Shown: positions 1 through 47,300 of the stretch, piece after piece
Layout: each line of letters opens with the position of its first letter
How positions within the stretch are numbered: the first letter of the stretch is position 1
Origin: Phoronis australis
Taxonomy: Eukaryota > Animalia > Phoronida
Direction of reading: 5' to 3'
DNA: 64,000 nt
NCBI GenBank assembly: GCA_002633005.1
Contig: NMRA01000666.1
Span: 124,001 to 188,000 of the forward strand
Program-made: the position numbers and the translations under genes
Notes under the pieces: generated by a model
Database searches by the model: none
Told to the model about the DNA's origin: nothing
The model's input: the letters and a program-made list of their open reading frames with translations, nothing else

Positions 1-3000
1 TTTCTGAAACAAAGATATGGGACAAATCTAATCACTGCCATTCACAACACTGTACCATTCTCGTGGTCATGTGCTTTTGACAAAAATGTCATTTTTGAAA
101 GGTATATATTAAAAGGGAAAAAGTCCTTTCACTAGTATTCACATTTTCGGTACTAAACATTGATGAAAATGCTTCAAACCAGTGTATTTTATTTTCCACA
201 GTTAGCGCCGATGTTTCTAATGGTATGTTTGAGCTAAAGTGGCATTCAATATTCATTTTTTGGCAGCTGAGACATCGTAAGAAATTGACTGGGGGGAGAA
301 ACGCCGGCAAACTGACTATGAAAACTGTAAGAAGACACAGCAGAGGAAACACAATTGATTAATTCCTCTTGACGACCAGATACCTCATTAACCACCTGAT
401 AGTTTGTGACGGTAATTGCCAAATCAGCAACTTACAAGGTTTCACACACTTGAGTTATAACTTGACAAGGCCAAGTCAAGTCAAGTCAGGGTTTTTTAGC
501 AGACTGCAAAAAGACTCCTGCATACAGCAATATCTACTGGTATTACAAGTAATCTAAAAATAACTACTTTCCGAGCATAAAATGTAAAACGGTGACAGTA
601 ACAATAGGAAGTGCCCAGGATCTAACAATCAGTGAAGAATTCATTTTATACAGGGTTGTTTGACTGGAATGCATAGCAAGTTGAAGATTACTGACAGGCC
701 AACTGGTTCAAAGTGATGCTTGCAACTCGAGTGCTGAACTTTGAATCAAACTAAGGTCTTACGGACAGCTCACTTGTGTTATCAGCTGGCATGCGGGCAT
801 TAAAAATGTCATATCTGCACACAACCACCAGTATCTTGCTGTAGAGATCAGCACAATGGGGGACATCAAAACTTAGAAATTAACATTAAAATGAAGGCAT
901 GACCATTATGATAAGAATTTTTGTTATTTACTATGTGCAAGAAAGGCAACCGATTGAAGAAGTGTGGCCAATTCTTACAATGCATCAGTTCAATGCTGGC
1001 CTACGCTAAATTGGGCTCCATAATTATCACATTATACCGTTCCCAGACGGGATACCTTATTCACGGTATGCGAGGGCCATCAGCGAAAATCTGTAGTCCA
1101 CTAGATGAGAAATCAGCATAAATATTTCTAAGACCAGGATGGACCATTCAGGCAAACACGATGCAGGAGATGACGTACAATAACTCACCAGAGACTGCAG
1201 GGAATAGATTGATCAATCAACGGCCACAATGTCTGTAACATTTGATGTTGATGCACCATGCCTGTGAAGTGTTTAGTTTTCTTTTATTGCCAACACATTT
1301 ATGCTTCTTCTTCACATGAAATTTTAAGTAATTGCTTGCCAAAATTCTTTCTGCTGACTGATGATTGCACTGGTGGCTTGATACAAGACAATGAAAAAAT
1401 TGTTTTGTCTAGATGTCTGACAAATTATTGTAACTAGGTCCCCAAGCATACCTATGCACAAGTGCCCTCTAATGTTTAGAAGTAAAAATAAAACATGGTC
1501 ACTTCCCAATCACCTTTTACAAAAGTTAGTCAGTCATGCTAACAACACCTGAGTATGTACAAGAGGACAGAGTCCCAAGTGACGCACCCAGAAACTCAGA
1601 ATGCATCTTCTAATAAGCTTAATCGCAGCATGTGACCTAGACACATAGCTTCAGGTGAACACAATCAGACATCCTTTTAATAAGTATTCTCACTTTATTC
1701 AGTAATGGTGGTTATGATCAAACAGTGAATTGGAGTTAAAATAGACATAAGTGGTTCAGCACCAACCGGAAAGAGAATACAATTAGTACAAGTGGTTGTT
1801 TGAAAACTTGAAACATGCAGATAAGGCACCACTGCAGAAATGTCAGTTGACAAAAAAAATGAAATAGAAAGTAACTCCATTTTTGTTAAATTAAGTATCA
1901 TATCTTTATCTGAAGACGTGACATTACTATTAGTTATTCATGCCAGACTAAATTTTAGAGAATCGTAAAATCATACTTCAAGTTACTAAATGATTCAATT
2001 GCTTGTAAAAATTCCAACGCATTTGTAATAATTATTCAGGACTCTGCGTCAACACTCTTTAGAGGATCTTTTAGTAATAAATCCATTCAAAGATATTTAA
2101 GTAAAAATTACCACTATGCTAGTAAACTGCATCATGCAGACAAAAAACAAACCCTTCAGGAGTGTATTGTTTGTTCTTCTACAGGAATGCCATCCTATTG
2201 TTAGTTCTTCCCATGGACATTTCCTGACAGCCTTGCAGCCATAACAGCTGATTGCAGATTAAACTAACTTGTCATGACAAGCAACTTAGGTAACCATGTC
2301 TGAAGCACTCTAGTTTTACTGCAAGTGTTTCTCAAGTGGAGAAATCATTCCTTATTTCAGTAACACTAACTTACAACTTGAGAACCAGTTTTCTCCCCTG
2401 AATATTGGGTATCAAACTCGTTCTCAAAATGAGAGCAAGGAAGAATAGTGTTGAGTACCATCTCTAACAGCGCCACCTGTAGAGCATACTGTGACATGTC
2501 CCTATCAAAGGATGGTGAATGAGACGCAGAAATCTGTTTGGACATCAGTGACCATGCTAGACATTTGCTTGGGTATTTGTTGAATACATACATGTGTAAT
2601 TGTCTTGTTCTGTTTGATGCATTAAATTTGGATAATTGAGTCAAAAAACATCAGCTTATATGGAATATGTCAATTTGGTCCATTCTTGTGATTGCAGCAA
2701 CCACAGGTCACAGTAAGGTATTTCTCAGTGCAACAAAGCATAATGAGTCAGTAAACCAACCCTTGCAGAGTGTTGGAATTTATTGAAAGCGTATTTAAGT
2801 TAATGCCGTAGATATCACACTCGAATTGAACGTCAACTAATAACATGCACAAGTCGAAATTACAATCACGTGAGCACAGCTATAGATCTGCTGAAATACA
2901 ACTGCGAATGTAACTGACTGCGGGGAAAACAAACCATCCGAAAGATCATATTCACTCTAAGATTAGACTCCTTTACTATTCACTTGTCACTTTGCCATTT

Positions 3001-3994
3001 CCATTTTTGTAACTCATGAACTGAAGCATTCACTTGGCCGATTGGCTGACATTCAGGTCACTACATGACGTCATTATGTAAAAAAATGAGATTACAATAT
3101 GGTAGACCTGATTTGCTTCGTTGTGGTTAGAGAAAGGTAAAAAGAGGTAAAATATAACTGGTACGACCTGTTACGGTTCCCTAAACATGCCAAATGAATC
3201 CAATTTGGTTAATACCAACACATTGAACAATTGTGTTCCTCTCACTCTTTTGGTTTATGCACATTTCACAAATCTGCGAAAAGCGCTCAGATGACCCTTC
3301 AGCTCCATTTGAGCTGAGTATTGGCTAACCAATACATTTCTTAATAGTTGCCAAACACAATTTAAGTTTGCATGTTATTTTCTAACCAATCGAAGTGTTC
3401 AAATGTTACTTCAATCTATCAACCAATGACAAGCTAAGTTACATGATCTTTTCATGGGGTCATCATTGTATAACTGGAGAAAAGTGCACTTCAGTATAAC
3501 ATCAAAGATGCTGTGTCTCATTAAAAGTGTGAATATTTAAATTTGTAGCAAACGCCACCTTGTGACTTCCTGGAGAACTGTGCGTACAAATATAGTTAGG
3601 ACCAGAAACAATTTGTAAAGAAAACGCGCTTTTAAAGAAAACGTCACAACTGATACACTTAAAAATAAGAGTGAACAGCCAGAAAACCCTAGTAACTCCA
3701 AATATTACAAAATCTTTATTTAATAGTGAAATGAACAAAAAATAAAAACTGTCATGTTTTATCAGGGTAACAGTGACAATAATTACCACACTCATATAAA
3801 TAAAAACAGTCTCGAAAAACAAGACTTTCACGAAATTGTAATGGTAACTGGTTCTCGGATGGTTTTCGGCAACACCGGAAGACCCAGGGTTGTTTATAAA
3901 CTAGTACTTCATTTTCATATTTATAATTTAATGAGACATAGCATCTATAACCGACCTAAATTAAAAGTCGTTTTCCTCAGAGGATAAAACTCAC

Positions 3995-5517
3995 CTTAAT
4001 GGTCACATTTCCCTTTGTGATCTTTCGCATGTTAAAACCCACGGTGGGGATCATGTCCTCTGTGAACTGGCCAGACTAAAGAAAAACGAGCATACAATAA
4101 GCTTCGGCAATCCACCCATTTATCATGGCAATGTCATGACCTTTGCAGGCTTTACAAGCAAACACCATCTGTTATATCATTTTCAGACATAAGGTTAAAG
4201 TAAACCTGATAACTTGGTATACCAAACATGATGGCATCATGAATATCTGTCTTCACTATAGACAGTGACCTGACCGTCTCTAGCTGGCTCGATTAGAGAC
4301 GGTGTTTCTGGTATACGCGCCTTTTGGCAAATTATGCCTTACACCGACTAAAACATCAAAGCCGCGTTGTTATAAATACATCATGCACATAGAAGGACAC
4401 CATAAGAGGACGTTACTGTCTTTAATTCCATTCCAACTCCAACAAATACTCCCGCCATCAAATTTATTTCTTGGAGCAGTCCTTCGTTCAGTTCCCAAAA
4501 TTGGTAAATGGCCATTTTTAACACTGCGCGCAGCAGGTGGTATGTCATATCCCCCATTTAGTCAGTGTGAGGCATACTTTGACGAAAAGCTTCCAGCATA
4601 TGAAGTGCCTATCAGCACTACACCATCTCTGTTGAGCCAGCTCGAAACAGTGGTTAATGTCTACACTATAGCCCAGTTGTGGATTACTGGCAACTATCAC
4701 CCAGTGCAAAGAACCACATGATGCGGAACAGTTCAAAACCTAGTCTTGAGATTCGTTCGAGCCACATTTAACGATGTCAAGAAATGTTCAGGCTTGAAAC
4801 TAACAACTTGGCAGTTTTGCTGCCCCTTGTCTCTACTCTAGGCAAGCTGATAGTAGTAAACCTAAACCTGCATGAGCTTGAATGAAAAATTGTTGTGATT
4901 GAGGCCCACTCAGTACTTAATAGGTGAAGCCGAAATCGCAACTTTCAAACTCAAACAAAACCAAGTAAGCGATGAGAAATATTTCCGGCAAAGCAATGAA
5001 CACCATTCAGTAAGTGGTGCACTGCTACTGAACTGCCCTGGGAATACTAACTCACAAAAGATCCACAGACAGGGTTACTAGGACCAAAGAGAGCACTGCA
5101 GAGTCAAATGGGTTCCCAGACTTTGAGAACGAATCCATTATTCCCTGTACGAAATTGCCCAGTTATCCAAACCATAGTCAGAGAACCTTGCCAATATGTT
5201 TCAAGAAACCAATACTGCCCAGGTAAGCTGAGCACGTTACTAGCTTCAGAGGTTAGGAGTAGGAATTAAATGAGCCATGGGCGATGAAATGCGAGAACTT
5301 TGTTCTGAACTGACCATTACAGTTTCAGTGAATGACACTGTCTTCACCGCGGAAGACGAAATCGAAATTTTTAGCAGACAATTTTTACACCCACCGCTAT
5401 AACATTAACAAACGTCGTCTTTCCTGAATATTGGAGTCCAACCAAAGTCAATTCCATTTCTTCCTTCCAAAACAGGCTCTTGAACCAGTCCAGAATTCTT
5501 TGAAAAAATGCTAACAT
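3995..5517 (-). CDS. ARL8: ADP-ribosylation factor-like GTPase 8 (lysosomal Arl8), coding exons 1-2; remaining exons presumably left of the window
   Basis: Exon 5517-5395 (123 nt) encodes [41 protein letters not shown] and ends at a GT donor. Exon 4075-3995 (81 nt, tttag acceptor, gtgagt donor) encodes [27 protein letters not shown]. This matches the Arl8 N-terminal amphipathic helix, P-loop GLQYSGKT and switch I. No further exon was found in 1-3990. Confidence 0.95.
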
Positions 5518-5676
5518 TTTGAGGTTTTGAGAGCAAAATCATAGACAGTATCTGTACAATTAATTTAGCTGGTCAGACGAACAGACAGAGGTCATGTGAT
5601 AGATGTGACGTCACTTCCGGGTCATACGAACAACGGAGTCACATGATTTTTAGTGCTGCTTTAGTTTCGGTTGAAG
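5518..5676. promoter_or_regulatory. Bidirectional ARL8/CTSC promoter with M-box/CLEAR-like E-boxes, CRE and ETS motifs
   Basis: 159 bp lie between divergent ATGs. Motifs are GTCATGTGA 5591-5599, GTGACGTCAC 5605-5614, ACTTCCGG 5613-5620 and GTCACATGA 5638-5646. Confidence 0.75.
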
Positions 5677-8600
5677 ATGGAGAGGGTGCTGTTTTGTGTT
5701 CTTGCATTCTGTATAGTGCACATTTCGGCAGATACACCTGCCAATTGTACATACAGTGACACCGTTGGTTCCTGGACTTTTTCTGTGGGCGGGCGCGGAC
5801 ACGACAAATCGCTAAATTGTACTGGTGTCAGTCGACTAGGTAATGTACACTGCCGACTGGCTGCCGACCAAAACATTAAATTTCAATTAAATGTGTGATT
5901 TAATTAAATGCAATGTGTTTTAAAAACATGCAATGTGAGTGAAACAAAAAACGATGACTGGCTATTATCAGCTATAGTAAGAATTACTCTCGCCATAATT
6001 AAATTTTTTCGTACTTTAAAACATGTTAATGTCATAAGTACCGGTGCTAAAACAAGATCATCATACAAATATCTGCCAGAGGTGAAGGAATTCTGTCAAT
6101 ATGATTGCACAACATAAAAAATCTAGATTTGCAGAAGGCCCGTTAGCGTATCACAGATCTAGAGAATGCTACTTGTTGAATATATGTATCGGTTGTCATA
6201 GCCAATGTAGTCACCAGCTCAAACTGATTGGATTCCGTTTTTGTCGATGTCTACAGACTGCAATGCAATGACATTGACACTTGATCAGTGACACAGTGGC
6301 ACTGTGTCACTGATACATATATTCAACAAGTAGCATTCTCTAGATCTGTGATACGCTAACGGGCCTTCTGCAAATCTAGATTTTTTATGTTGTGCAATCA
6401 TATTGACAGAATTCCTTCACCTCTGGCAGATATTTGTATGATGATCTTGTTTTAGCACCGGTACTTATGACATTAACATGTTTTAAAGTACGAAAAAATT
6501 TAATTATGGCGAGAGTAATTCTTAATATAGCTGATAATAGCCAGTCATCGTTTTTTGTTTCACTCACATTGCATGTTTTTAAAACACATTGCATTTAATT
6601 AAATCACACATTTAATTGAAATTTAATGTTTTTTCATGATCTTAACATGTATTTCTTGTTTTTCTTCAGGTGATTGCAGGGATCTGAAAAGTCAAACACA
6701 ATTTTCAGTCACACTTGCAAAATGTTATAAGCAAAACACTAGATTTGCATGTGCTCCTTCTCTTACAGCCTTGGCTGAAAAAGAAAATCATTACTACTGT
6801 TTTGAACTGTGTTTTTTAATGGTTGACATTATATAGAATTTGGTTTTAGAAACCACATATTTGTATCAAATGTCCTGGTGATTGGATTCCTCAACCAAAT
6901 AATATCACGGTCACCAAAGAATAACTGTATTCTCCGTAGCCCTGTCTGAATTCTATTGACTTCTTCCATTAATAAAAGATATTTGACACTGCATATTGGG
7001 AATCTTTAAGCTATCTTTGGCCCACAAAAAATATTAAACCAAGCCCTGGATTTGAATTGATCATAAGCAAAAATGTATTTCGTATTCTCGGCATCCCCTG
7101 TATTCTCTGTAGCCCCCAACTTTGAATTGTACATGGTTTGAAAAAACTTGTATCTAGGTGCATTTACAGAGGAAATGGAGACAAATAAACTCTTCAACAA
7201 AAGAAAAAACACAAATTTTTATTTATGGGTGGAATTTGATGCAAGTTTAGCTAAAAATTACTTTTTCAGTTTAAACTCATTGTTAATAAAACATGAATAT
7301 TCTTTGTTCATTCAGAAGTGTTGGTATTAACAAGTAAATGAATTCTATTGCATTTCTCAAGTGTTCATCCACTCATAAACAGGTATCTCCATATTTTGTA
7401 TTCTCCGTAGCCCCATCCATGACCTCTGTGTTATGTGATATCTATGCATACAATGTTTACCGATGATGAAAAGTTTTTTCCTGTATTTATTTGAATGTAG
7501 TTAATGGAATTAGACATTCCTTTTGACAGTGATGTGACTCTGTGATGATAGTTAAGTGTTGAGTATGTCTAAGAATTAAGTACAATCGCTATGTTTTATT
7601 TGTATACTGTCTCACACCTTGTGAAGCATACACAGGTGTGAACCTACTTTTTATATCGATTTTCAGTGATTAACTACATGAGTTTCCATTAATAAATTTT
7701 CTTGTTCCAAAGTCAGATTTAAGTCTTTTTTCCAAAATGGATGTGACAATACCATTGATGTAGTCTCCGTAGCCCACATTTTTCTTTGTTTTTTCATCAG
7801 GCCAAATCTCCAAAAACTAAATGAGATACTTCACAAAAATTTAACCTGATATTCCATATACCATGTTGATTCCAATAAAAGAAGTCTCCAAGCTGAAATG
7901 AAAAGTTCATAAAATGCCATTTCTGAAACAAAAATGTGCACCCTGAGTAAAATATGTTGTAAGCTAGCTGGTGATAAAACATGGGATTGAAAAAAACATG
8001 CATACTATTTTTTGACATGCTCCTCCCCTTTAAAGGCGATAATGATCAGTGTCACATGGTGAGTTAGTCAGCCCCACTGGATCTATCCACATCCAAGTCG
8101 CACTAGGGGGCGCCGTCGTCAATTGGCACTCTACTCCTTAATGGTCAGATTGGTTTACTTAACAATGACTAGCATGTTTTTGAAATGTTTTCTTGTTAAG
8201 TACTTACATACCGATGAAAAAACATTTCAATCTCTCAAAAGTGTTTCTTGGTGTCAGTTACATTATGGTACGTGCCTGGCCCTGAATTCAGGCAGGTTTG
8301 CAAAATGCAGTGATATGGTACAAAGCTGTGCGGTGGTAATATAAATATATGTGCGAATCGTCTGGACTTTTATGACAGGCATCTTTATGATTGGGGATTA
8401 GCGAACAGAGATAGGGTGTGCAGTCTCAGTGTCAACTGTTCCTGCCGTTAGTATGAAAGGGCCTTAAAAGTTCAATCTCTCATTAGTTGGAGAGTAGTGC
8501 CCCATGTAAAATGCCGTCATGCCATCATGGGTCCACTTTTACAATAGGTGTTAGTGGTTGCCTCAGCATGTGAGCTGAAGCTTGCCTTATGCAATATTTG

Positions 8601-11600
8601 AGGAGGCAGTGTGGCCTAGTATGATAGGTGCTCGCTTTCTTTACTGGAGGTTGTGGTTTCGAGTCTCGCTGGGCCACACTGCTAGACCCTTCATGCAGTC
8701 AGGTTCCTAGCTCCGCTGCTCAGTTTTAACAATATATATATTGATAATGCACAAAAATGCTTCCAGGTGAGCAGTGTAATGGGTCCACATGTGCAGAGCG
8801 CATCTTGTACATCGTGTACCAGACCGCCTGCATTATCAAAGTGGTGGTGCTTACTCTGGAGTTCCGAATAGTAGTAGAGACAGCAATAATAGTATAGACT
8901 GGAAAATTTCACGATTTTTAATAATAGTAGAGACTCTAATAATAGTATAGACCCAACATTTTTGCCACTAGAAAAGTAGAATAATAGTATAGACCGGAAA
9001 TTTGTCGAAAAAAATTAATAATAGTATAGAATGGAATAATGGTATAGACAGCAAATTTGTGGAAATTTAAACATAGTANTGCCTTGATCTCTTTTTGTTG
9101 ATTTAATTATTGTAATCATTTCTTCGTAATTAACCCCAAACTTGTTAAAGACACAACTCCTATCATTGTGTTGACTTGAGCAAACTGCCTGTCTTTCAGT
9201 TCCTACATTAAGCTGTTGGTGTTAAGATAATTAACTAATGAATCAAGACCATCTGACTGAATCTCTAAAATTTGTAAAATTCTGAACCTTTCCTTGATTA
9301 TATATTGCATTGTTTGAAATTTACATATTGATTCATTGTCTTATTGTTGAACTTTTTACTTTCAGAACCTAATGAGAAACTCAAAGTGGAACTCTATTTT
9401 CCTGATGTTGTCTTCGATCAATACGGGAACAAAGGCTGGTGGACTCTTATATACAATCAGGTAATTGGATTTTGTGTCAAATGCTGTAATGTGAAACCTG
9501 AGCAACCTTCTTCACTCATCCCAATATAAGTGCATGGTGCAGCTGATCGCTATACAAGCATATAGCTGACAGAATGTGAATCGGCCCACTGTAAACTGCA
9601 AGACACCGAAAGTAGTTTCTTGACCTAAATCCACAAAAGAAAGGTCTTAGATGTACCTTTTTGACTTAATGAAGATCACTGTCAAGACTATTATGCAAAG
9701 TAAATTAAGTGTTCTGACAGTCAAAAATAATGACCCCACATTATGTTGTTTACACTGTGGCCCTAATGTGTTTTGAATGTCACATGCTGTTAATTATTAT
9801 GAGACTATCCTTTATCATCATTACTCATGCTTGGTTGTTTGGCATTTTGTGAGTATTTATTTCAAAGCGCATCCGAACTCATCCTAGTAGTTTTTGTGTT
9901 TTTGTCATCGCTATATTAAGTTTTCTTAAAAGTAGTCACGTGGTGTTCCCTTTGCCAAAATTGGCGCTCTCACTGCATTGCATTAAATGTTAATTACTCA
10001 TGTCCAAAAGAAATGAATTGCTTTTAAAAAATTTCAGGGATTTGAGGTTGTGATCTCAGGAAGAAAATACTTTGCCTTTTTCAACTGGGCGTCTAAAGGC
10101 GGGTCAGAGGCCATCAGTATCTGCAATGCTACTCGCTCTGGTTGGTCACATGATGTATTTGGGCGGGACTGGGCATGTTTTACTGCCTCAAGGGACATGT
10201 CGCTGATGACAAATCGAAGGGAGAAGATGGTGCAATACCGAAATGGAAACGTGGAAACAGAAAACATCGATCCAAGGTAAATCTATAGACTGAGTTAGAC
10301 TGTTCGATATGAAGCTACATGTATGTCAATAGGCCACTTGGTATATTATGTATTGCAGGGCCAAGAATTTCAACTTAATATTAGTGATTTAGAAGGTAAT
10401 GAACACGAGTGTTTGAAGTAAAAAAGTTGCCAAATATTAGGTTGTAATAGTTTTTGCTGTTGTTAAATGATTGTGTAATATTACAGTATCCTTTCCTGTG
10501 CTAATTATTTTCACTAGAAAAGCATCCAAGGTCTTTTACCGTCACAACCCGGATTTCATCAACAAAATAAATAGTGTTCAGAAGTCATGGAAAGCAGTGA
10601 GGTATCCTGAGTATGAGAACTACACCGTGGAGCAGATGATACGCCGAGCAGGGGGACGCAAGTCCAAGATAAGAGGGTATCGTCAATTCTACTGATTACT
10701 TAAGAGATATGAAGTATTGTCTAAAGTAAAGTGGCTTGAACAAAAGAGGTCACTTTGTTCATACTTTACCATTTAGAAATGCCTTCTGAAATTGTTAACC
10801 CTGATTGTGTAAGGGCTGTTCCAGTAAAATCTGTATGGGAGGGGGGGAAGGCACCTTTTTTTGCACCCACCACGCATATTTTTCATTTATTTCTTCAGCC
10901 TACCACCCGTAATTTTTCATAAGTTTGAAATGCAACCACCCATAATTTTTTTTTGTTCTTGTGGTTGACTGCACAGGTGCTTCAGTTTATCTGTTCCTCC
11001 ATCACCACTAACGTCATTCATTACTAAGAAAACATATGTCTCTTATATATGGTTATTAGCCATCGAGAAATTCAAGCACCTGTGGTTAAATGGTGTTATG
11101 GGCATGCCGATGAGGAGATCGGAGGGAGTGAAAAAGTCGGAGCTTTTTGCAAGTTGCATTTTTGTTTCAGTTTTTGATTCTGTGCCGATTGTTTATAAAA
11201 TTTACTAAAATTACCCACCATCAAACATTTATGGCCCAATGAAACAACAACGACCTGTAAATTTTTATTTTTTTGAAGTACGACCACCACCCATTTTGAA
11301 TTTAAATCAAACGCAACCACCCATAAATTTTTATTTCAGTTGCCTTCCCCCCCTCCCACACAGATTTTGCTGGAACAGCCCTAAGGATACAGTGAGCAGT
11401 CGGTAGCAAAATATTAAATCATGAACACAATAATGTTGATTTTGAAAAGTAACAAATCAATGACTTGTTTATTACTGAAACATGTGCTAAGTCTGGTTTG
11501 ATAGGCCGATGGTGAGAAGCAACTCTCAGTGTGATGGTGTCGAAGTTTATATAATTGTTATGCAGCCACTGTGAATTGCTGTTGGTGAAATTAAAAATTT

Positions 11601-14343
11601 ACATGACTGTGTTTACTAGTGTTTAGCAATTTTTTGATAGCATTCCTAGACCAACTCCAGTGGATGCTGACACCTTGAAGCAAGCACAACAACTGCCAGA
11701 CTCGTGGGATTGGAGGAATGTGAATGGTGTCAACTATGTATCACCCATTCGCAATCAAGGTTTGCATAATTGAACTCAAGCCACGCTTTCCCTGACTCGA
11801 AAACATGTTATATTTTATTGTGGGTTTGTTTAAGACGAATTCTCAAATTTTTTAGTCCTTTACTGTATTCTTATTTATCTTAGCTTGAAATAGTAATTAA
11901 CTGAAATGTACGTGCCTTCAAGCGGTTGATGGTTACGTAATAATTACTTTTTGTTTGTTAAAAATATAATAAATGAATCTTTTAAATGTCCAATCCTGCG
12001 TTTGTCACTTGTTCCTCATCAAGGAGATTGTTCTTCATCTTGGCAGGTCAATTTTTAGCTTTGATTGGATTTTAATTAGAGGATCCTTTCTCAACTGTTT
12101 TCTGAATGTGTTTGTTTTAAGTGTGAGATTTGAGTAGTAACTAACTGAACCACAGAACTCTCTGGAAATAATCTTGAGTTGAATTTTCATAATTAATTGA
12201 CTTAATACTAACTTTTTGTTTCCAGGCGCCTGTGGTAGTTGCTATGCATTTGCCTCCATGGCGATGAACGAGGCCAGAATTCGTGTCATGACCAAAAATA
12301 CTCAACAACCAGTCTTCTCACCACAGGACATTGTAGAGTGCAGTGAATACTCACAAGGTGGGGCTGTAGTCAATGAAAACGTAGGGTGGATTTGATGCCA
12401 TGCAGTGGCCATTTTATATATTTTTGATACTGTCTGCCTATGGAATCAACATAAAAATTGACAGATTAGACTGTTGACATTGACAAGAGCATGACTGAAT
12501 TTGATTTTTGGATGGGTCCAGCTACTGTGGTACCTCTTACTATCATTTTTTTGGATCTGTTACTTAAACCTAAGCCCAATACAGGATCTTTGTGAATTCC
12601 CATTATCTAAACAGATGTACGAATTCTATTTCTGCTCTGCACCCTAGTGGAATGTATCTCTTTGAGTTTCTTGACCCATCTGTATGAAATGTTGCAAATA
12701 GCTTTCTGTTTGGGAGGCGACAATGTCTTCCAGTTTTCAGATAGGTTTGATGTATTACATGTGGTGTATTGGCCATTCTTACTAATAGTTGACACGCCTA
12801 GAAACATTATTTCAATGGCTGTGCATTGCTTTTGTTCCATTTGCTAGTAAGTAGAATAAACAGTCAAGAGTAACCTGGAAAGTGTTAGCAAGAGGGAATG
12901 TATGCAGATTGCTTGATCGCTTACTTGCTGAAATGTTATAGTTGCACTGTGTATTTCACAACATTGTCAGAAGCTTGACATTTTCCTGAATATTTTGAAA
13001 ACTGCATTTTGACCATTGGGGCTTCAATTAAAGATCATTTTCCACACCAGGCTGCGAAGGAGGATTCCCTTACCTGATTGGTGGAAAGTACGCTGAAGAC
13101 TTTGGTCTTGTGGAAGAAAAGTGTAACATGTATAAGGGAAGAGACGGGAAGTGTACAACAGACCCAAAATGTGGCCGCCATTACTCCACATCCTACAGAT
13201 ACATCGGAGGCTTCTACGGAGCGTAAGTATCAAATGGGGAACTCGAAATTCAGCAGGTGGTGCATTCGTACCTTATTGCCTCTATTCAGATGTACTGACA
13301 TGGGACCTTTGGTTACCCTCACAAACCCCTGTGTCCCTCTGCTGATAAAATTGCTTTCTTTTCCCAATCTCTATTGTCTTAAAAGATGGCCTTATCTAGG
13401 CACCACCCAGTGTGAATATCAAATTGCTAACCGTAGGGAGGCTTTTTATTCGTAGATGGTAATTGGCAAGTGACTCTGAATAACATGCAGAGCTCAGTGA
13501 TCCTGCAACTATGGTGATGACCAGCTACTGACTATATTCTATGTATCTCTCACTTCACTCTATGGATGTTACCTGAGCTGTATGTTGGCACTTGTTGTCC
13601 TAAATTGTTGTAAATATGAACCTGATGATGTCTAATGAAAAGACAAAACATTGAATTGAACATGAACTTTTTTATTTGTGCGGTGATCGTCCGGTTTTTA
13701 AAGTGACTTTGGCCGTCATTTTCAATTTCCCACATTTTTGTTAACTTGTGGAGTTATATCGAAGTTTAGTTAAATTGATGCAAGAAATTTTATCATGAGC
13801 AGTTCTGTGATGGCTGTGTATTTACTTCCATAATTCTACTATGAAGCAAAATTTTCCTTGAAAAATATATTTTTGTAAAAAAATATTTCTAAGGCCATAT
13901 TGTGTACTGAATTTCTGAAACTCACCTTTGGATGTATATAACTACTTGAAAGTTGAAACTCTGTATTGCTTTCAGTTCACCCAGTTTTAACGATTCTATC
14001 AACATTTTGCAGGTGTAACGAACATCTTATGAAAATTGCCCTTGTCAAAAATGGTCCCATCGCAGTATCCTTTGAGGTTTACAATGATCTTATGCACTAC
14101 AAAAGCGGCATTTACCACCATATTGAAGGACTACTAGGAGGCCAGTTCAATCCTTTTGAGATCACAAATCACGTTGTCATCATTGTGGGTTATGGATTTG
14201 ACGAAATGTTTGGGCAGCCATTTTGGATTGTTAAGAATAGCTGGGGCTCACAATGGGGTGAAGAGGGGTTCTTTAGGATACGTCGAGGAAATGATGAGTG
14301 CGCGATGGAGAGTATGGCTGTGGAATCATCTCCAATCATTTAA
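5677..14343 (+). CDS. CTSC: Cathepsin C / dipeptidyl peptidase I, isoform using proximal terminal exon 8a (469 aa)
   Basis: Exons 5677-5839, 9366-9460, 10038-10276, 10518-10676, 11641-11759, 12226-12357, 13051-13222 and 14013-14343 are all GT-AG and phase-consistent. The protein has a signal peptide, then exclusion-domain [37 protein letters not shown] (catalytic Cys), [11 protein letters not shown] (His) and KNSWG (Asn). Confidence 0.95.
5870..6632. repeat. Long near-perfect inverted repeat in CTSC intron 1 (321-bp arms)
   Basis: 5870-6190 is the reverse complement of 6312-6632, with one mismatch seen. A 15-bp-arm palindrome is centred at 6299. This explains the mirror ORFs 5908-6117(+) and 6385-6594(-). 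Confidence 0.95.
6925..8033. mobile_element. Probable degenerate non-autonomous DNA transposon fragment with an internal repeated motif and a Kolobok-like CCT|TTAA end
   Basis: The motif TGTATTCTCCGTAGCCC recurs at about 6926, 7099, 7397 and 7759. The region ends ...CCCCT|TTAA at 8025-8033. The left end was not identified. Confidence 0.35.
8603..8680 (+). mobile_element. tRNA-derived SINE head (degenerate)
   Basis: A-box-like TGGCCTAGT (8612) and B-box-like GGTTTCGAGTC (8655) at tRNA spacing. No complete cloverleaf. Confidence 0.5.
8866..9052. repeat. Cluster of about 7 AATAATAGTATAGAC-like motifs (subterminal-repeat-like)
   Basis: aata(a)tagta(t/g)agac is repeated with variable spacers, next to a single N at 9079. 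Confidence 0.6.
10813..11381. mobile_element. PIF/Harbinger (Tourist-like) MITE, copy 1, in CTSC intron 4
   Basis: About 40-bp TIRs (GGGCTGTTCCAGTAAAATCTGT.../...ACAGATTTTGCTGGAACAGCCC) with a TAA target-site duplication on both sides. Confidence 0.85.
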
Positions 14344-16401: not shown

Positions 16402-16729
16402 GTGTAACGAAGCTCTCATGAAACAGTCACTGGTGAAAAGTGGTCCGTTGGGTGTTGCGTTCATGGTCTACAGCGACTTCATGCACTATAGAGGCGGAGT
16501 CTATCATCACGTGGATGAACTAGAGGACCATTTTAACCCCTTTGAAATTACAAATCACGCTGTATTGCTAGTGGGTTACGGCACAGATAAGGACAGTGGA
16601 GAAGACTATTGGCTCGTGAAGAACAGCTGGGGGACATCTTGGGGTGAAGGCGGCTACTTCCGCATTGCCCGCGGACACGACGAATGTGCCATTGAAAGTA
16701 TTGCCGTAGAATCATTCCCTATCTTGTAA
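16402..16729 (+). CDS. CTSC: Second, intact copy of the cathepsin C terminal exon (8b); alternative last exon giving a 468-aa isoform
   Basis: An atag|G acceptor in the same phase as exon 8a is followed by an open frame [20 protein letters not shown]...[19 protein letters not shown]...KNSWG...[21 protein letters not shown] occurs at 17033-17038. Confidence 0.88.
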
Positions 16730-18636
16730 TCCACTAACTTTTTACTTTTTGCTTTACTTTGTGAGTTTTCATTTTTTTAGTGAATAACATTTTCTCTCTA
16801 CGTTTGGCTCAATCCCCTCAACTTCTCAGTGATTTCGTAATATTAGAGATGATTCCTCCAAGTTATGTTCAAAATGGAACTTGCTCATGTCCGACCAAAC
16901 CAGAGTAGGAGATTGTATTCTAGTAAGGCGAAATCCTAGAGCTTTTTTCGATGTCACACTCCTGCCAGCTTTAGTCAGATTATTTACTGCGTCATGCGCC
17001 TGGATTGTATCAATGTTCATACTCGTACACTTAATAAACAGAATGTGTTTTTAACTTTGTAAAATAAATTATGTGTTCATATTGTAGGATGTAATTATTC
17101 AACATACATAACGAAACGACTCTTCAAAACGAAGGCCTTGTGGATTAGTTAATCTGCACTGAAAATTCCCAAAATCTTCATGTTCCAAAATTTTACTATT
17201 AGAAAATAACCCTGTGTATGATAGGTTAAGCATTTCTTGCTATATCCTCAAAAACAAGGTCAATGTCACCAAATTTGACTGGAGATTCCAACAAAATCTG
17301 AAAGTTTGAAAACTTTCAAGCGTGGCCTACACTTTAACAAATTACACAGCAACTGTGGCAAAAGACGACCCACCAAGAACCATAATGTTCCAATTTTGTC
17401 AAATGGGGAGGTATGGTTGAAACCAGCAAAACGGTTTAGTAATCCTTTTAAGAAAAAATATTAACGACATTTATCTTAAGTTTGTTTTCTTTATTTACAA
17501 ATACAATTTTCACATTTTCATCAGCAATTAAGAGACCTTTGAGGTTAAAATAACAGGCTGCAAACTAATCTCAGTCCAAATAGAATACAAAACATCCCCG
17601 ACAACAAATGACAAAAACAGCAAAACTAGTAATTGAACATAGAACCAAGCAACCTGTTGAAGAACAGTGGACACGGTGATAGTCCCTGAACTGAACAACT
17701 AATCGACTGCATCGTCAAAGTTGATGCCCAGCATTTCAAATTGATGCTGAAGAAAAAGTGGCCATTTTATCAACAGCTGCACACACCACCAGTGTAGCCA
17801 TCTCTATCAAACCTGGCCCACAGTTGGAACACTAACAAAACCGCCAGCACTGACTCTCATTGGATGTCAACATTACCACTGAACATAACGTGTTGAATCT
17901 GGGAGGAAATGGTACACAATCTCACTCTTTCAGTCCAGATTTTTGGATGTAAGTGTCTCCAGTGTGCCCAAATAAAGCTCTATTGGACGAAGCTGCGTCT
18001 ATTTGTATGCTCCTGGTATGTAGGTCTAAGACCAGTTTTTGTCGCATTTCAAGACAATTTCTTGTGATTGAATTTCTATTCTTGGGAAGTTCACTCCAAT
18101 ATTGAAAGGGGTTGATACACAATAGGAAACTTAACCAAGCACAGGTACAGCACTGACAGGGTATCCTACTACATATCAACATCTAAACTTAACACAGCTG
18201 AAAGAAAATCCAGACCCGTTTGATACTATATTAAATTTAAATCTAAACGGCAACCAAACATAGGATTAGTTTAGCAAAAATATTTCTTTTTGTTCATCAC
18301 TTTAGGACTTGGTGCTCCTAAACAACCTGCTAGTAACCCAATCTATTGTTCAGCCACCACACACAGTGTTTGGCTTTCCAGAAAGATGCGCATATTGGTT
18401 CCGACACACAAAATGTAATCCTGTCAATCCCAAAGTCAGTACTGAATTTAGCCCTTGGCCATAACACTTTTCATCATTCCTTGCAATCACAGAAATCATG
18501 CCTGCACTGAGTAACGAGCATTCTGAGACTGAATCGTAACAAGTGGGTAGTGTAATGTAAAAGTACATTTCGGACATCAAAAATTGCAGCAGATCTCTGG
18601 TTGTGAAGATAAAAACCGATGATGCAGTTCGCTTTC

Positions 18637-21600: not shown

Positions 21601-24600
21601 GTCTGAAATGTAGTGCAAAAACAAACACAGCTTAAATGCAGTGCAAAAAATACAGATGAAATGTAGTGCAAAAAATAGAGCTGAAATGTAGTGTAAAAAC
21701 AATACAGCTGAAATGTAGTGCAAAAACAATACAGCCGTAATGTAGTGCAAACAGCTGAAATGTAGTGCAAAAACAATACAGCTGAAATGTAGTACAAAAA
21801 CAATACAGCTGAAATGTAGTGCAAAAACAATACAGCTGCTGAAATGTAGTGCAAAAACAATACAGCTGCTACCAACTTATCAAAAATACACAAATCTTCT
21901 GATTTAGATCACTTTCTGTACAAATTATTTTCAGCTTTACTGAGATCTGAAGATTTCTGGGATTAGGAAGAAGTTTAATTTTCCTTGGCACACAAAATGA
22001 CATGTCGGGTCACGCCAATTTCTTGAACCTATTTTCCTTCAACAACGGGCCATCAATTTTTCTTATCCCTGGCTTCACGTCCACTCTGAGAAAGAAACTA
22101 CATTATGAGAGATTAGTTCTAAAACGGAGCAACAGGTGGGGTTCATAGCAACTTTAAAATGTCTCTTTCTCGTTTCACAACAGACGACACATGTTAAAGT
22201 TCCATTCATTCTGGGCTTCTGTTGAAGGAAAACACATTTACACACCTATATGTATTTCTTCTATTACAAGAAACCAAATATCATTCTACCAAAGCCCACA
22301 CAAGACAGGAGAACCTTCTCCAGTACGATAATCTCTCTTACCCCCAAAACACACACACTAGTTTCATTTCCCACAACCAACACTAACTACTCTTCACGAG
22401 TTCCTTCTCTTAGATCTTCCCTTGAGTAAAGTCGTTAACACTGAAAATCCCCAACACATTTTATCTTTGTCAATACTCCTCTGATGGATCTTCTCTCTTA
22501 CCACTCACCCCCCCCCCACACACACACACAAACAACCTCCACTGCCCCACCATGATGACTCACTCTCACCCTTGGGGAGGTCCTTCTCGTGGATGATCTT
22601 GCCACCCCTCTTGCTCGTCTTTTCCACCATCAGGGCCTGACTCATCCCCTGCTCTGACTTGCCCAGACCCTGTCCCTCCTTGTAACCCATCTTGGCCATC
22701 AACTTGGCTGCAACAGATCCCCTGCAAAAACAAGCAATGCGTCACAGTACATGTACGCATACATTGTATTTTCACTTTCCAGGAATTTTCCAAGAAATGC
22801 ATTGAGCCTTTGTACGTCCTAAGTCATGTTTTTCATTTGTACCATGTAGGGAAAGTGTTTTGCGTCAGATATTAAGCTTATTGTGTTCTGTGTTACTCAA
22901 CGAACACATACACTTGAAGAAAATGGTCTCCCTGAACAATTGTTAGACACTGACTAATCGTGCAACATGAGTGAACGAATCATAGATGACACCAGGGCTC
23001 CGTTTCTAAATTTAAATCTCAAGTTTGATTGTTGCCATGACATTAACAGCATTTTTCAACCTCCGCAATGTGACAGACAGCAATGTTACTTTGGTCAAAG
23101 TTAGAACTAAAGATTTTGCAAAACAGAGCCCTCATACGGTGCGTGTATATACGCTAGGAAGATGGTTTCCAGAAAACACAAGTTTTAAACTAAAATCAAA
23201 TTAGTTGTAAAATAGTTTCTGCGAAGTGAAATTCTCAAGGGAAGCCTTGCTTTGGAATTTAATCCGTGAATATGAATCTGATACCCAGGACTGGAGTTTG
23301 GTCACAAGGTATGGAGTATTTTCAATGAGTGTAGGGAGTTGAGGAGTGCAGGTGTGAAAACACAGGTTTGGTGTCTGCTAGTGAGTTAATATCACAAAAC
23401 ACTGGATATTCTTGTTTCACAGCTCTGGGCAAAGATTACAACTTCAAGAAGCCCATCTCATCAAACAAGAGATCCAAAATATATTTTTAAGTCCTAAAAC
23501 CAAGTGTTCCTTTAAATGAAGAACATTTAATGTCCACTCATAACTTCAGTCTACGAGCAAAATTGGCATGGCAACCTTTCAGCTCATGTAAGTTTCAACC
23601 TTGCTCTGCAATAAACAGACTCACCCTAACCCCATCTTCAGGCCAATTGAGGTTTTCCCCTCCCCCATCTCTTTTTGCACCTCCTCTTTGATCTTCTCAT
23701 CCTGCTGTATAAGGGCGGTGGGCGGAGCGATGGCAGCACCACCTGTCAGTAACAGAGAGATGAACAGATCATTAGCATTTTGCACATTCCGCCCTTCACA
23801 CATTGGAAGAAACACAGATGTTGATATGCACCTACCCTGTCTGGTAGACCATAAGCAATAAAAAAACCATGGAGCTTATTAATTACAAGTGTGGGCTGTC
23901 CCAGTAAAATCCGTATGGGAGAGGGGGAAGGCAATTGAAATAAAAATTTATGGGTGGTTGTGTTTGATTTAAATTCAAAATGGCTGGTGGTCGTACTTCA
24001 AAAAAATAAAAATTTACAGGTCGTTGTTGTTTCATTGTGCCATAAATGTTTGATAGTGGGTAATTTCAGTAAGTTTTATAAACAATCCGACAAAATCAAC
24101 AACTAAAATAAAAATGTAACTTTCAAAAAGCTCCACTTTTTCACTCCCTCCGATCTCTCCATCGACATGCCCATAACACCAGTCAAACACAGGTGCTTGA
24201 ATTTCCTGGCTAATAACCATATATATTAGTAATGAATGACTTCAGTGGTGATCGAGGGACAGATAAACTCAAGCGCANAAAAACATGACTTGCAAAAAGC
24301 TCCACTTTTTCACTCCCTCCGATCTCTCCATCGGCATGCCCATAACACCAGTCAAACACAGGTGCTCGAATTTCCTGGCTAATAACCATATATATTAGTA
24401 ATGAATGACCTCAGTGGTGATCGAGGGACAGATAAACTCAAGCGCCTGTGCAGTCAACCACAAGAACAACAAAAAATACGGGTGGTTGCATTTCAAACTT
24501 ATAAAAAATTACAGGTGGCGAGCTAAAGAAATAAATGAAAAATATGGGTGGTGGGTGCAAAAAAAGTGCATTCCCCTCCCTCCCACACAGATTTTACTGG

Positions 24601-44393: not shown

Positions 44394-47300
44394 ATGAATG
44401 TCTCGAATGAGACATTTGCTAACTCTACATCACATTTCGATCGTAATGGCATCCTACAGGTTGCTTTCTACTGTATCCTGGTACCGGTCTCACTCGTCGG
44501 AAACGTGCTCACTATGTGCGTGTCAGTAAAGAGCGTGCGTCGAGCCAAAGTTAGTCGAATACCGGATGTGTTAATCGGATGCCTCGCTCTCAACGATTTG
44601 CTGTCCGTGTTGTGCATTCATTCCTTCACTATAGTGTCAATGATAGCTGGCTACTGGATACTGGGCGATATCGGCTGTCAATATATGTCATTCATGTCAT
44701 ACTCGTATTTTAAGTTCGGTTTCTGGTGTGTTTTGGCCATTGCTATCGATCGTAGTTATCGTCTGGTGAAGCCACTGCGATACCCCCTAGTTGCAACTTC
44801 CAAGAAGCTCAAAATTGCCATATCGGTTATCGTGGTGTTCAGTCTTGGATCGTCCCTGATCAATCCTGTTTTTGATCCTGGAACTGCTATTCTTCTAAAG
44901 ACGTGGTATGTGTGTTTTCCTGACTGGGAGGAGGGAAATCTGGTGCAACTAATTGTCGTTATTGGAATAACCAGCTTCTTCGTACCAGGGGTTATTGGAT
45001 TCGTCATCTGTTACATTCTCAACGCGGTCATGTTGTATCGGATTCAAAAGAATTCTGCTAGGATGCGCACGCCAGTGGCAAATACTAGTGATAGTACAGA
45101 TCTCCGCAAAAAGACCACGCTGGCAATGTTCTTCAAGAGAAACAAAATCCCAATGAGACGTAATCTCGGTAGCGAGAGTTCCACACCGGAGCTAACGAGG
45201 AATACGTCGGAAGGAACGCTAGCCATTAAAAAACGCATTCCAATTTTAAAAACACACCGCTCATCACCAGACATTAGATCTAGTCCAGTTAGGTCTGCCA
45301 ACGAGTGCCAGACCACGGCATCAAGTTCATGTCAGGCTGCGAGTGTTAATCTTGCATCAGGCTCAGATGTCAACACCTGCGAAGAATCGCCAAATTTAAG
45401 TACAACAAGGAGACTTGCAAACTGTGATAGTCAGCAGGTTCTCCAAGAAAGCTATATTTCCCAACTTGAGAGAAATAGAACGAAAACTGAGAAAAAGCGA
45501 GAAACCGCCGCAGCTCTTGGCTTTGCCAAATTGTCCCTGGTGATTGCAACAGTTTTCGCAGTGCTTTGGATTCCCTACGCGGTAAGTTGTCATGTAAGAG
45601 TGCAAGATGCTCAAAGCAGTGCTACTGCTGGTGTTTGTTACATGAAATTGTGGTAAAGACTTTGAGCACAACTTGATCTTACACTTCCACTTAGCAATGT
45701 TGCTGAAAATGGGTTTTAAATGCTCTTGGAAATAGTTTTATGGAGAAGACGAAATTTCTGACTTAAATCAATTTTCATCGAAAAGGCCCCTGGAATCCGA
45801 ATTACAGAGCGCCTACAATAACGGCAGTGTCTTGAGTCGAGATCATCCACACCAGTTTGGTTCATAATGCCGTCATCCCTGCCTCCCTATTCTTCGGATG
45901 GGTCTTTGTGAACAATTTGCAGATATTGTTAATCATGGAGAATACGATGCCTCGCAATCTAAGGATTGGCCCGACTACTACTTTTTGCTCGCTACCAAGG
46001 ATTTCCGAAAGACACAATCAAAGTCCCGTTAAAAATGAAAATTAACTTCTTGTCATGTTTTGTTTCAGGCAACCATAATTCTTGGTGTGGGCGGAGTGTT
46101 TGTTGCTGAGCAGAACCCGTTGGCTCAAGATATCGTTATTAAGTGTGTGTTCTTTAACGCCGCATCGAACCCGGTGCTATACGGAGTATTCAACAAACAT
46201 TATAGGGACGGATACATATATTTCGTTCGATTAGCAGTCTACTATTTGCTAATGAAACGATTGAAGAGACCAACCGGTGAGTAGGATCCCGAATGCACTT
46301 GTACCCCTGCTGTTTGCTAATAGCCATGTCCCGAATTCAACTTTCCCTCGTTGGCGAGGATACCGCAACGCTTCTGAGTGATTGACTTGGTTCTTGAAAG
46401 TGTGGGCGGATACACACTTCTGAGCCAGGTCAGGCATGAAGACGTAGGGTGTAACCCGTCACATCCAGCTAGTCAAGTTTTGGTGTCAGTACTGTAACTG
46501 ACAGTGCAACAAATAATATTAGCATGGAATGACGAATTCATACCAAAATGGGTTTGATGCAACACTGACCATCTGTGGCGCTGCATTGTGCATAAATACA
46601 GCTTAATCAAGCCTTTCTCTTTATATAGTAGTTTCATTCACATTTATAGTGGATAGTTGAGTTCTTAGAAAACAAAAGCTGAAATAAACTTTTTAAATGA
46701 GAGTGATAATGGTAAAACAGTTCAGTCAAATTGTTTGGCGTGGTACCAGCGTATACTGCGTCACCTGGTGTCCAACTTTATCATTTCGAGTCCGCTTTTT
46801 GGCGTCCATTTCTTTTATCTGCCAAATAGCTCAAAGGATCATTAATAAGAAGACCATGGCTGACATTGATTTTCGGCCTGGTCTGACAACTGTGGCGCCC
46901 CCTAGTGATAATTTTGTAGTTATTCGTCCATGGGTGTATGTCCTTGATCCTCAATATGATCTTTATGAACTTTTGCAAGTGATTTTCTACAAATGCAACA
47001 ACGGCTGCCCGCGATTGATGTGTTTGCCACTTTATCTTCAAATTTCCGACGGGTTTTTATGAAAACTGACAAATAAGTTTCTATTATTAAGACATTAGCA
47101 CCTTTCCAATTTGGGTTGGATTCGACCTATTCTGAGCCACCTAGTGGCCGTTTGGTCTGTTCTTGTCCTCTGTCTCTGTATCCGCCAAAGCGTTCAGAGG
47201 ATCATCGTGGAATCTGGAAGATGTGTTCCTACTGGCACGAGCACAACTGCCGTGGATTTTCAGTCTTATCCAATTACTGTGCTGCCCCTACTGTATTCCT

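What the first reader, a model, noticed from the sequence alone, without database searches (positions are those of the whole stretch)
5395..5839. Head-to-head lysosomal gene pair ARL8-CTSC sharing a 159-bp promoter with mirrored M-box/CLEAR sites
Seen: the ATGs at 5517(-) and 5677(+) are 159 bp apart. The spacer holds TCATGTGA (5592-5599) and its reverse complement TCACATGA (5639-5646), flanking an overlapping palindromic CRE (GTGACGTCAC) and ETS site (ACTTCCGG). A TCACGTGA also occurs at 2866 in ARL8 intron 2. Established: TCAYGTGA is bound by MiT/TFE factors (MITF/TFEB) that drive lysosomal genes, ETS/GABP sites are typical of bidirectional promoters, and both ARL8 and cathepsin C are lysosomal. 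Inference: this is a compact two-gene lysosomal regulon coupling a hydrolase to the lysosome-positioning GTPase.
Basis: partly seen in the sequence, partly recalled or inferred. Interest (0 to 1): 0.7.

Follow-up and report, generated by a model that had tools for sequence, protein, structure and literature searches.

The report
Conserved back-to-back lysosomal gene pair
In this invertebrate the lysosome genes ARL8 and cathepsin C sit back to back with RNA reads starting about 30 bases apart, and three other, divergent animals keep both the pairing and the same eight-letter motif at the start of each gene, so the lysosome regulator MITF/TFEB likely switches the two on together.

Summary
Stranded RNA reads (3 samples, 1 study) place both 5' ends inside the 159-bp spacer. 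No upstream exon was seen. The stretch without reads (about 5591-5619) is E-box 1 plus a perfect ETS-CRE 16-mer. E-box 2 lies in CTSC's start zone. Of 80 ARL8 loci from metagenomes, 3 carry CTSC head-to-head (spacers 340, 491, 356 bp; CTSC 41-47% identical to the window's). All three keep a TCATGTGA/TCACATGA 69-73 bp from the ARL8 ATG, another 8-28 bp from the CTSC ATG, and a 12-bp block. ETS survives in 2 of 3, CRE in 0 of 3. The 2866 site is chance-level and strict mirroring is not kept. The 8-mer equals the fly Mitf element (dCLEAR). Best reading: two back-to-back start regions, each with its own M-box, likely co-induced by MiT/TFE (0.62). A USF-type basal element is the main rival. Binding and co-regulation are untested. 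My searches found no paper on this pair. The scan noted a similar kind of pair (PPT1, elephant shark) on other DNA, but not this one. New member of a known kind.

The parts
3995..4075 (-). ARL8 coding exon 2 (exons 3 onward lie outside the window, below base 1)
   Evidence: spliced to exon 1 in 24/12/43 reads
5395..5590 (-). ARL8 exon 1 with 5' UTR; ATG at 5517; read 5' ends pile at 5569, 5582, 5588, outermost at most 5590
   Evidence: its 41 residues equal the N-terminus of L001 ARL8, whose cluster members are named ARL8
5576..5587 (.). Conserved 12-bp block GACG(A/C)ACAGACA at the ARL8 start; binding factor not identified
   Evidence: 11 of 12 columns invariant in 4 of 4 linked hosts; found in 3 of 80 loci, only the CTSC-linked ones
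5592..5599 (.). E-box 1 (M-box/dCLEAR 8-mer), directly upstream of the outermost ARL8 read ends; 74 bp from the ARL8 ATG
   Evidence: 73, 69, 70 bp in L002, L013, L018, same orientation
5605..5620 (.). Perfect ETS-CRE composite 16-mer; ETS half partly conserved, CRE half only in this host
   Evidence: same 16-mer as in PMC3464117; TTCCGG kept in L013 and L018, no TGACGTCA in any of the 3 spacers
5639..5646 (.). E-box 2 (M-box/dCLEAR 8-mer) in the CTSC start zone, 30 bp before the ATG; transcribed in part of the RNAs, where its ATG (5643) opens a weak out-of-frame upstream ORF
   Evidence: 17, 17 and 28, 8 bp before the CTSC ATG in L002, L013, L018
5620..5839 (+). CTSC exon 1 with 5' UTR; ATG at 5677; earliest reads at 5620-5622
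   Evidence: Pfam CathepsinC_exc E 3.8e-8
9366..13222 (+). CTSC exons 2-7 (9366-9460, 10038-10276, 10518-10676, 11641-11759, 12226-12357, 13051-13222)
   Evidence: GT..AG joints with 28-80 reads each in 3 RNA runs; open frame
14013..14343 (+). Duplicated, intact CTSC last exon 8a (proximal; likely minor isoform)
   Evidence: 68 of 109 residues identical to 8b, same phase; RNA depth 11-14; its splice joint is not among the rows shown
16402..16729 (+). CTSC last exon 8b (main; catalytic His and Asn motifs); 3' end near 17040
   Evidence: joint 13222>16402 in 28/30/46 reads
2866..2873 (.). TCACGTGA in ARL8 intron 2; no evidence that it belongs to the system
   Evidence: P about 0.22 by chance

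Best explanation
ARL8 and cathepsin C are transcribed in opposite directions from one short stretch, each gene start carries its own conserved TCATGTGA box, and the single invertebrate MiT/TFE factor (MITF/TFEB homologue) likely binds both boxes and would raise both RNAs together when lysosomes are needed. Shown: the two genes, their splicing, both 5' ends inside the spacer, and linkage plus both boxes in three other hosts. Inferred: that the boxes are bound by MiT/TFE; that an ETS factor (with a CREB-type partner in this host only) keeps the shared region open and sets basal output; that the outcome is joint scaling of a lysosomal peptidase and the GTPase that moves and tethers lysosomes; and that the overlapping control region is what has kept the genes linked.
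For: 5' ends in the spacer, strand-specific, with no reads at about 5591-5619 and no foreign loose ends. CTSC head-to-head in 3 of 80 loci, with spacers of 340/491/356 bp whose middles share no evident similarity, yet boxes fixed at both gene starts in 4 of 4 linked hosts; two boxes arose in 1, 5 and 9 of 5,000 shuffles. CTSC identity to the window is 46.9% (L018), 41.1% (L002), 42% (L013 exon 1), no higher than the window's identity to sturgeon over the same columns (52.7%, 46.8%, 46%). The ARL8-side box recurs 50-110 nt before the ATG in 7 of 26 host representatives against 11 of 1,745 background tiles. A partner-side box upstream of the partner ATG was found with CTSC in 4 of 4 hosts and in 0 of 8 groups with other divergent partners; in L060 one overlaps the partner's start codon. 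The 8-mer is the fly dCLEAR, enriched at -50 to +150 of V-ATPase gene starts (PMC10452791, passages). Human MITF binds it in vitro (PMC10539308, passages). Clam MITF binds a cathepsin promoter E-box (PMC6620822, passages).
Against: No binding, knock-down or reporter data. USF2 binds CLEAR-type E-boxes too (PMC11436898, passages). Neither box matches the palindromic mammalian CLEAR 10-mer (8 of 10 each). Co-expression is inconclusive: junction reads rank alike in 3 samples, but the ARL8/CTSC ratio varies about 2.3-fold by junctions and 3.4-fold by exon-1 depth. The linkage is absent from 19 of 22 host groups with at least 1 kb of flank, so it is not needed in general. The linked hosts share ancestry and are not independent; the 50-110 nt tile was chosen after seeing the data; true first exons of the control partners are not known. 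RNA-seq ends are not cap sites. I could not confirm that mammalian ARL8B or CTSC are TFEB targets.
Confidence: 0.62

Rival explanations
1. The boxes are basal, start-site elements bound by USF or another ubiquitous bHLH-ZIP factor. The genes are constitutively expressed from a shared open region and stay linked because their core promoters are adjacent, without lysosome-specific co-induction.
For: The ARL8 box sits at or within about 12 bp of the start here; intronless contigs L032 and L062 begin at the box, and in the L003 group a CACATGAC follows a TATA box by 9 bp, which is core-promoter-like. USF2 occupies CLEAR-type sites (PMC11436898). ETS-CRE is described in housekeeping-type promoters (PMC3464117).
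Against: The box is not generic: none within 500 bp upstream of the two single-exon genes in the window and none upstream of 8 non-CTSC partner starts. All 9 conserved boxes in the 4 linked spacers are the CATGTG form with T/A flanks, the fly Mitf form, whereas the USF2 motif quoted is GTCACGTG.
Confidence: 0.2
2. Each gene is a MiT/TFE target through its own box, as it would be anywhere in the genome; the head-to-head linkage is an old accident kept by slow rearrangement, and nothing in the spacer works in both directions.
For: In hosts with 340-491 bp spacers each box tracks its own gene and the middle is not conserved. ARL8 keeps its box without CTSC in L012, L030, L034 and L040, with BicD as the partner in the L030 group.
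Against: The pair has stayed under 500 bp apart in 4 of 4 hosts although the window host has multi-kilobase introns and repeat insertions 30 bp from the CTSC donor, which suggests selection against separation. In the window the starts are so close that the elements are physically shared.
Confidence: 0.16
3. The motifs are chance words and the close ATGs hide distant true starts, or the junction is an assembly error.
For: None found beyond the chance-level 2866 site and the unconserved CRE.
Against: RNA 5' ends in the spacer; the same arrangement in three separate metagenome contigs; shuffle tests.
Confidence: 0.02

Closest known systems
dCLEAR element of insect V-ATPase genes, bound by Mitf (PMC10452791, passages)
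   Same: Identical 8-mer TCACATGA/TCATGTGA; sits at or just after the transcription start; positionally conserved over long times; lysosomal-pathway genes.
   Different: Here the targets are a hydrolase and a trafficking GTPase, arranged head-to-head, in a non-insect; arthropod-type ARL8 loci (L042, L054 groups) lack the box near the ATG.
Mammalian CLEAR network (TFEB/TFE3; GTCACGTGAC), with USF2 competing (10.1101/723312 and PMC11436898, passages)
   Same: bHLH-ZIP E-box close to the start of lysosomal genes.
   Different: Boxes here are the CATGTG form, 8 of 10 matches to CLEAR; in mammals that form marks MITF differentiation genes (PMC10539308, passages).
Conserved 5'-5' microsyntenic pairs with bidirectional promoters, e.g. 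HSPE1-HSPD1 (PMC3514665, passages)
   Same: Divergent, under 1 kb apart, functionally related, orientation conserved.
   Different: This pair is lineage-limited (3 of 22 other host groups); whether it is in that paper's list is unknown because the supplement could not be read.
Lysosomal genes on bidirectional promoters: GALNS-TRAPPC2L (PMC8895820, passages), GLA-HNRNPH2 (PMC7792484, search listing only)
   Same: A lysosomal enzyme gene head-to-head with a neighbour.
   Different: In those pairs the partner is not lysosomal (own knowledge); here both genes are, and both carry a conserved M-box.
ETS-CRE composite bound by GABPalpha and CREB (PMC3464117, passages; PMC4555227, listing)
   Same: Exact canonical 16-mer, which occurs three times in the human genome by that paper.
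   Different: Present in this host only; CRE half absent in 3 of 3 linked relatives.

Membership tests
Bidirectional promoter | Two genes on opposite strands with starts under 1 kb apart | tested here: met
   Stranded reads end at about 5590 (minus) and begin at about 5620 (plus)
Bidirectional promoter | No distant start through an untranslated upstream exon or spliced leader | tested here: met
   No joints; only loose end in the spacer is an indel allele continuous with genomic sequence; depth is modest and about 18-19% of each run was read
Bidirectional promoter | Co-expression of the two genes | tested here: inconclusive
   Three samples, one study; same rank by junction reads, ratio varies 2.3- to 3.4-fold
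Bidirectional promoter | A shared element drives both directions | not testable with these tools
   Needs a dual reporter
dCLEAR / MiT-TFE target | TCATGTGA/TCACATGA 8-mer within about -50 to +150 of the start | tested here: met
dCLEAR / MiT-TFE target | Positional conservation in other species | tested here: met
   4 of 4 linked hosts, both genes
dCLEAR / MiT-TFE target | Bound by, and dependent on, a MiT/TFE factor | not testable with these tools
   No ChIP or knock-down data
Mammalian CLEAR 10-mer (GTCACGTGAC) | Palindromic CACGTG core | tested here: not met
   0 CACGTG in the four linked spacers
ETS-CRE composite element | Precisely overlapping ETS and CRE 16-mer | tested here: met
ETS-CRE composite element | Conserved in relatives | tested here: not met
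   CRE absent in 3 of 3 linked hosts
Ancient metazoan microsyntenic pair (PMC3514665) | Linkage kept across several major animal lineages | tested here: inconclusive
   Hosts are divergent but unplaced; quick trees give no starred group; absent from Nematostella-like and arthropod-like ARL8 loci
ARL8 (Arf-like GTPase 8) | Sequence identity to named ARL8 proteins | tested here: met
   Exon 1 identical to L001 ARL8 over 41 aa, exon 2 93%; cluster named ARL8. Pfam Arf alone was below cut-off
Cathepsin C (dipeptidyl peptidase 1) | Exclusion domain plus papain domain with Cys, His, Asn motifs in one spliced frame | tested here: met

The most novel reading that the evidence does not exclude
ARL8-CTSC is an ancient two-gene lysosomal unit kept across a whole phylum or more (likely molluscs or wider Lophotrochozoa), in which the MiT/TFE box is not a distant switch but marks the transcription start itself. 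With the unassigned 12-bp block it would form a core-promoter module that fires both genes from starts only tens of bases apart, and the ARL8 half would date back to the cnidarian-bilaterian ancestor.
Probability: 0.25. Interest if true: 0.72.

Novelty: new member of a known kind. Interest (0 to 1): 0.52.

Why it matters
Evidence for the lysosomal CLEAR network outside mammals, flies and worms is thin and often rests on finding any CANNTG within 1 kb (10.1101/723312, passages). This locus gives position-exact conservation of the specific 8-mer at two lysosomal genes across hosts whose cathepsin C has diverged to under 50% identity. It also puts the lysosome-positioning GTPase ARL8 among likely ancestral MiT/TFE targets. 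The 159-bp spacer is a ready-made dual reporter for MiT/TFE activity in an invertebrate lineage. The kind of thing (co-functional head-to-head pair, CLEAR-type sites) is known, which caps the surprise.

Tried and rejected
No whole genome is held, so motif enrichment at lysosomal versus other promoters could not be tested genome-wide. No indexed RNA holder was listed; raw-read runs of the same species label were used instead. Placing the hosts in a phylum failed: homologue search gave no relative above 78%, L018's hits were unnamed, the GPCR had no hit at 1e-15, ARL8 clusters are too broad, the metagenome records are not held for more sequence, and two quick trees gave no starred placement; the careful tree did not finish. 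Mirror symmetry as a design feature: rejected, L002 has the CTSC-side box in the other orientation and L013 has both. CRE as part of the conserved module: rejected (0 of 3). 2866 site: chance-level. Upstream exon or spliced leader at the acceptor-like AG sites in both UTRs: not seen. A Smad-box plus E-box composite (recalled from the PAI-1 promoter, not looked up): spacing from AGAC to CATGTG is 6, 3, 11 and 9 bp in the four hosts, so rejected as a fixed composite. Conserved upstream ORF from the ATG inside E-box 2: frame and length differ among hosts, rejected. A human SGSH-SLC26A11 precedent (recalled) was not confirmed by search. A paper on Arl8b regulation, id recalled, was not held.
Full report
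Observation. The coordinates are exact: reverse-strand ATG at 5517, forward ATG at 5677, 159 bp between them, TCATGTGA at 5592, TCACATGA at 5639, GTGACGTCAC at 5605 overlapping ACTTCCGG at 5613, TCACGTGA at 2866. The window holds 6 such 8-mers in 63.4 kb. Two in the spacer arose in 6 of 20,000 dinucleotide shuffles. The CRE and ETS together are the canonical ETS-CRE 16-mer of PMC3464117 (passages read). The 2866 site is expected by chance with P about 0.22. With flanks, the two boxes read GTCA-TG-TGAT and GTCA-CA-TGAT, so they are same-direction variants of one near-palindrome and the mirror holds only for the core.

The genes. The minus-strand exons 5395-5517 and 3995-4075 are ARL8. Pfam Arf alone was below cut-off, but exon 1 is identical over 41 residues to a full ARL8 in locus L001, whose cluster members are named ARL8. 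Exon 3 is not in the window. The plus-strand gene is cathepsin C, with exclusion and papain domains, top hits named dipeptidyl peptidase 1, all main splice joints seen in RNA, and an open 468-residue frame. No whole genome is held. The host is an invertebrate whose CTSC is closest to molluscan ones (59-62% to named molluscs), but the quick trees give no starred placement.

Where transcription starts. Three stranded RNA runs of the same species label (3 samples, 1 study; about 18-19% of each read) were laid on 5300-5869. ARL8 reads cover 5395 to about 5590, with 5' ends piled at 5569 (11), 5582 (6) and 5588 (5) in run X8, and splice to exon 2 in 24, 12 and 43 reads. CTSC reads are on the other strand, begin at 5620-5622 at the earliest, have depth 2-4 across 5623-5641, and reach 25-48 by 5680-5698. 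From the bin arithmetic no read covers about 5591-5619, which is E-box 1 plus the ETS-CRE. There are no joints to a distant exon. The only loose end inside the spacer comes from an allele with 6 inserted bases at 5650-5659, and it runs on into the E-box 2 letters. So E-box 2 is transcribed in part of the CTSC RNAs. RNA-seq ends are not cap sites. The main starts may be 80-100 bp apart (about 5570-5580 and 5650-5670), with the outermost ones about 30 bp apart. The ARL8 side showed no listed difference from the window over 5395-5588, while CTSC exon 1 had 8 coding-region differences plus UTR indels.

Conservation. A scan of metagenome contigs with the ARL8 exon-1 frame gave 206 relatives, of which the best 80 were kept. 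tblastn with cathepsin C proteins against all 80 hit only L002, L013 and L018, each with CTSC head-to-head. ATG-to-ATG spacers are 340, 491 and 356 bp. All three have the 8-mer 73, 69 and 70 bp from the ARL8 ATG (window 74) in the same orientation, and another 17, 17 and 28, and 8 bp from the CTSC ATG (window 30). Two boxes arose in 1, 5 and 9 of 5,000 shuffles, and the rest of those loci hold 0, 1 and 1. A 12-bp block next to the ARL8 box is invariant at 11 of 12 positions in the four hosts and occurs in none of the other 77 loci. TTCCGG is kept in L013 and L018 but not L002, and the CRE in none. The hosts are distant: CTSC identity to the window is 46.9% (L018, 277 columns), 41.1% (L002) and 42% (L013 exon 1), against 52.7%, 46.8% and 46% for sturgeon on the same columns. 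L002 and L018 are sisters at 60%. Fast evolution in that branch could inflate the apparent distance.

Limits of the conservation. Of 22 other host groups with at least 1 kb of upstream flank, 19 have no CTSC there. These include the L030 group, whose ARL8 resembles Nematostella's and faces BicD, and arthropod-like groups. The ARL8 box is wider spread than the linkage. Taking one representative per host group with enough flank (26 of 80 loci; 54 dropped as redundant, too short or lacking an ATG), 7 have the 8-mer 50-110 nt before the ATG, against 11 of 1,745 background tiles (Fisher 2e-9). The tile was chosen after looking and hosts are related, so this number overstates the case. Four more have TCACGTG at 180-230 nt. 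As a control for a generic start motif, 0 of 8 groups with a non-CTSC divergent partner have the 8-mer upstream of the partner's apparent ATG (in L060 one overlaps the start codon), and neither single-exon gene of the window has one within 500 bp. True first exons of those partners are not known.

How it likely works. Shown: divergent transcription from the spacer, one box at each gene start, both kept while spacer length changes threefold. From the literature: this exact 8-mer is the Mitf-bound dCLEAR of fly V-ATPase genes, enriched at -50 to +150 (PMC10452791, passages); human MITF binds it slightly less well than TCACGTGA (PMC10539308, passages); clam MITF binds a cathepsin promoter (PMC6620822, passages); Arl8b with SKIP and kinesin moves lysosomes outward (PMC6595708, passages). 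Inferred: MiT/TFE dimers at both boxes raise both RNAs on starvation or phagocytic load, with an ETS factor supporting basal, two-way activity (the ETS link to bidirectional promoters is recalled, not read here). I give this 0.62. USF2 binds CLEAR-type sites and competes with TFEB (PMC11436898, passages), and the ARL8 box sits where a core element would, so a basal-element reading gets 0.20. Two independent targets linked by inertia gets 0.16. Co-expression in three samples is inconclusive: junction reads rank X8, X6, X7 for both genes, but the ratio varies 2.3-fold, and 3.4-fold by exon-1 depth.

Comparison and novelty. It works like a conserved 5'-5' pair with a bidirectional promoter (PMC3514665, passages) carrying dCLEAR sites. 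It meets the positional definition of a bidirectional promoter and the sequence and position features of dCLEAR, and fails the mammalian CACGTG CLEAR core. A search for Arl8 + cathepsin C + synteny returned 0 papers. A search for 3 of ARL8, CTSC, head-to-head, microsynteny, bidirectional returned 36, 20 listed, none about this pair by title or abstract start. Bidirectional promoter + lysosomal + CLEAR + TFEB returned 9, none on it by listing. The library lacks most subscription journals and the supplement of PMC3514665 could not be read. The scan's earlier notes hold no ARL8-CTSC finding and one pair of similar kind in elephant shark (unchecked).

Side finding. CTSC has two intact last exons, 14013-14343 and 16402-16729, 68 of 109 residues identical, same phase, both with catalytic His and Asn motifs. 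The distal one is the main form (28, 30, 46 joint reads). The proximal one has sense-strand depth 11-14 with coverage continuing to the distal exon, while two clean intron bins are at 0-1. Its joint is not among the 15 rows shown (21 hidden), so a second isoenzyme is likely but not shown.

Verdict. Real, transcribed as proposed, and conserved. The regulator is inferred. New member of a known kind; interest 0.52.

Noticed in passing
window 14013-14343 and 16402-16729 (+): Tandem duplicated, intact last exon of cathepsin C (62% identical); alternative acceptor choice would give two enzymes differing in the catalytic His/Asn half. Distal form dominant; proximal form has RNA depth 11-14 but its joint was not displayed.
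   Followed up: partly
window 5870-6193 / 6309-6632: 324-nt, 99% inverted repeat starting 30 bp after the CTSC exon 1 donor; a young foldback element or an assembly artefact. Exon 1 still splices correctly.
   Followed up: no
window 3030-3430: Six CCAAT boxes in 400 bp (P about 4e-4) with a TGACGTCA at 3066 and the TCACGTGA at 2866, inside ARL8 intron 2; could be a nested promoter or element. No reads laid.
   Followed up: no
window 10812-11382 and about 13470-13700: Two high-copy repeat elements with terminal inverted ends in CTSC introns 4 and 7 (DNA depth about 1,000-2,000 times single copy), transcribed on both strands elsewhere.
   Followed up: no
window 5643 (+) and about 5542 (-): Each 5' UTR holds an out-of-frame upstream ATG in weak context whose ORF overlaps the main start; not conserved in the linked hosts.
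   Followed up: partly
window 1-28000 versus 29000-64000: CpG observed/expected is mostly 0.3-0.7 over the ARL8, CTSC and G-patch gene bodies and near 1.0 beyond, as expected of mosaic gene-body methylation; the spacer itself is 0.95.
   Followed up: no
L060:136-1884: ARL8 faces BBIP10 followed directly by an LMBR1-like gene (family includes the lysosomal cobalamin exporter, own knowledge), with the 8-mer overlapping the BBIP10 start codon.
   Followed up: no
L030:1-3004 and L039: In hosts with Nematostella-like ARL8, the gene keeps its M-box and faces a Bicaudal-D family (dynein adaptor) gene, another organelle-transport partner.
   Followed up: no
L003 group (25 loci), about 85-120 nt before the ARL8 ATG: TATA box followed 9 bp later by CACATGAC, invariant in the group, placing the E-box between TATA and the likely start.
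   Followed up: partly
window 22508-22741 (-), 44394-45653 (+), 56922-58478 (-): Neighbouring G-patch exon, single-exon rhodopsin-family GPCR with no homologue at 1e-15, and single-exon B-box/NHL (TRIM-NHL-like) gene.
   Followed up: no
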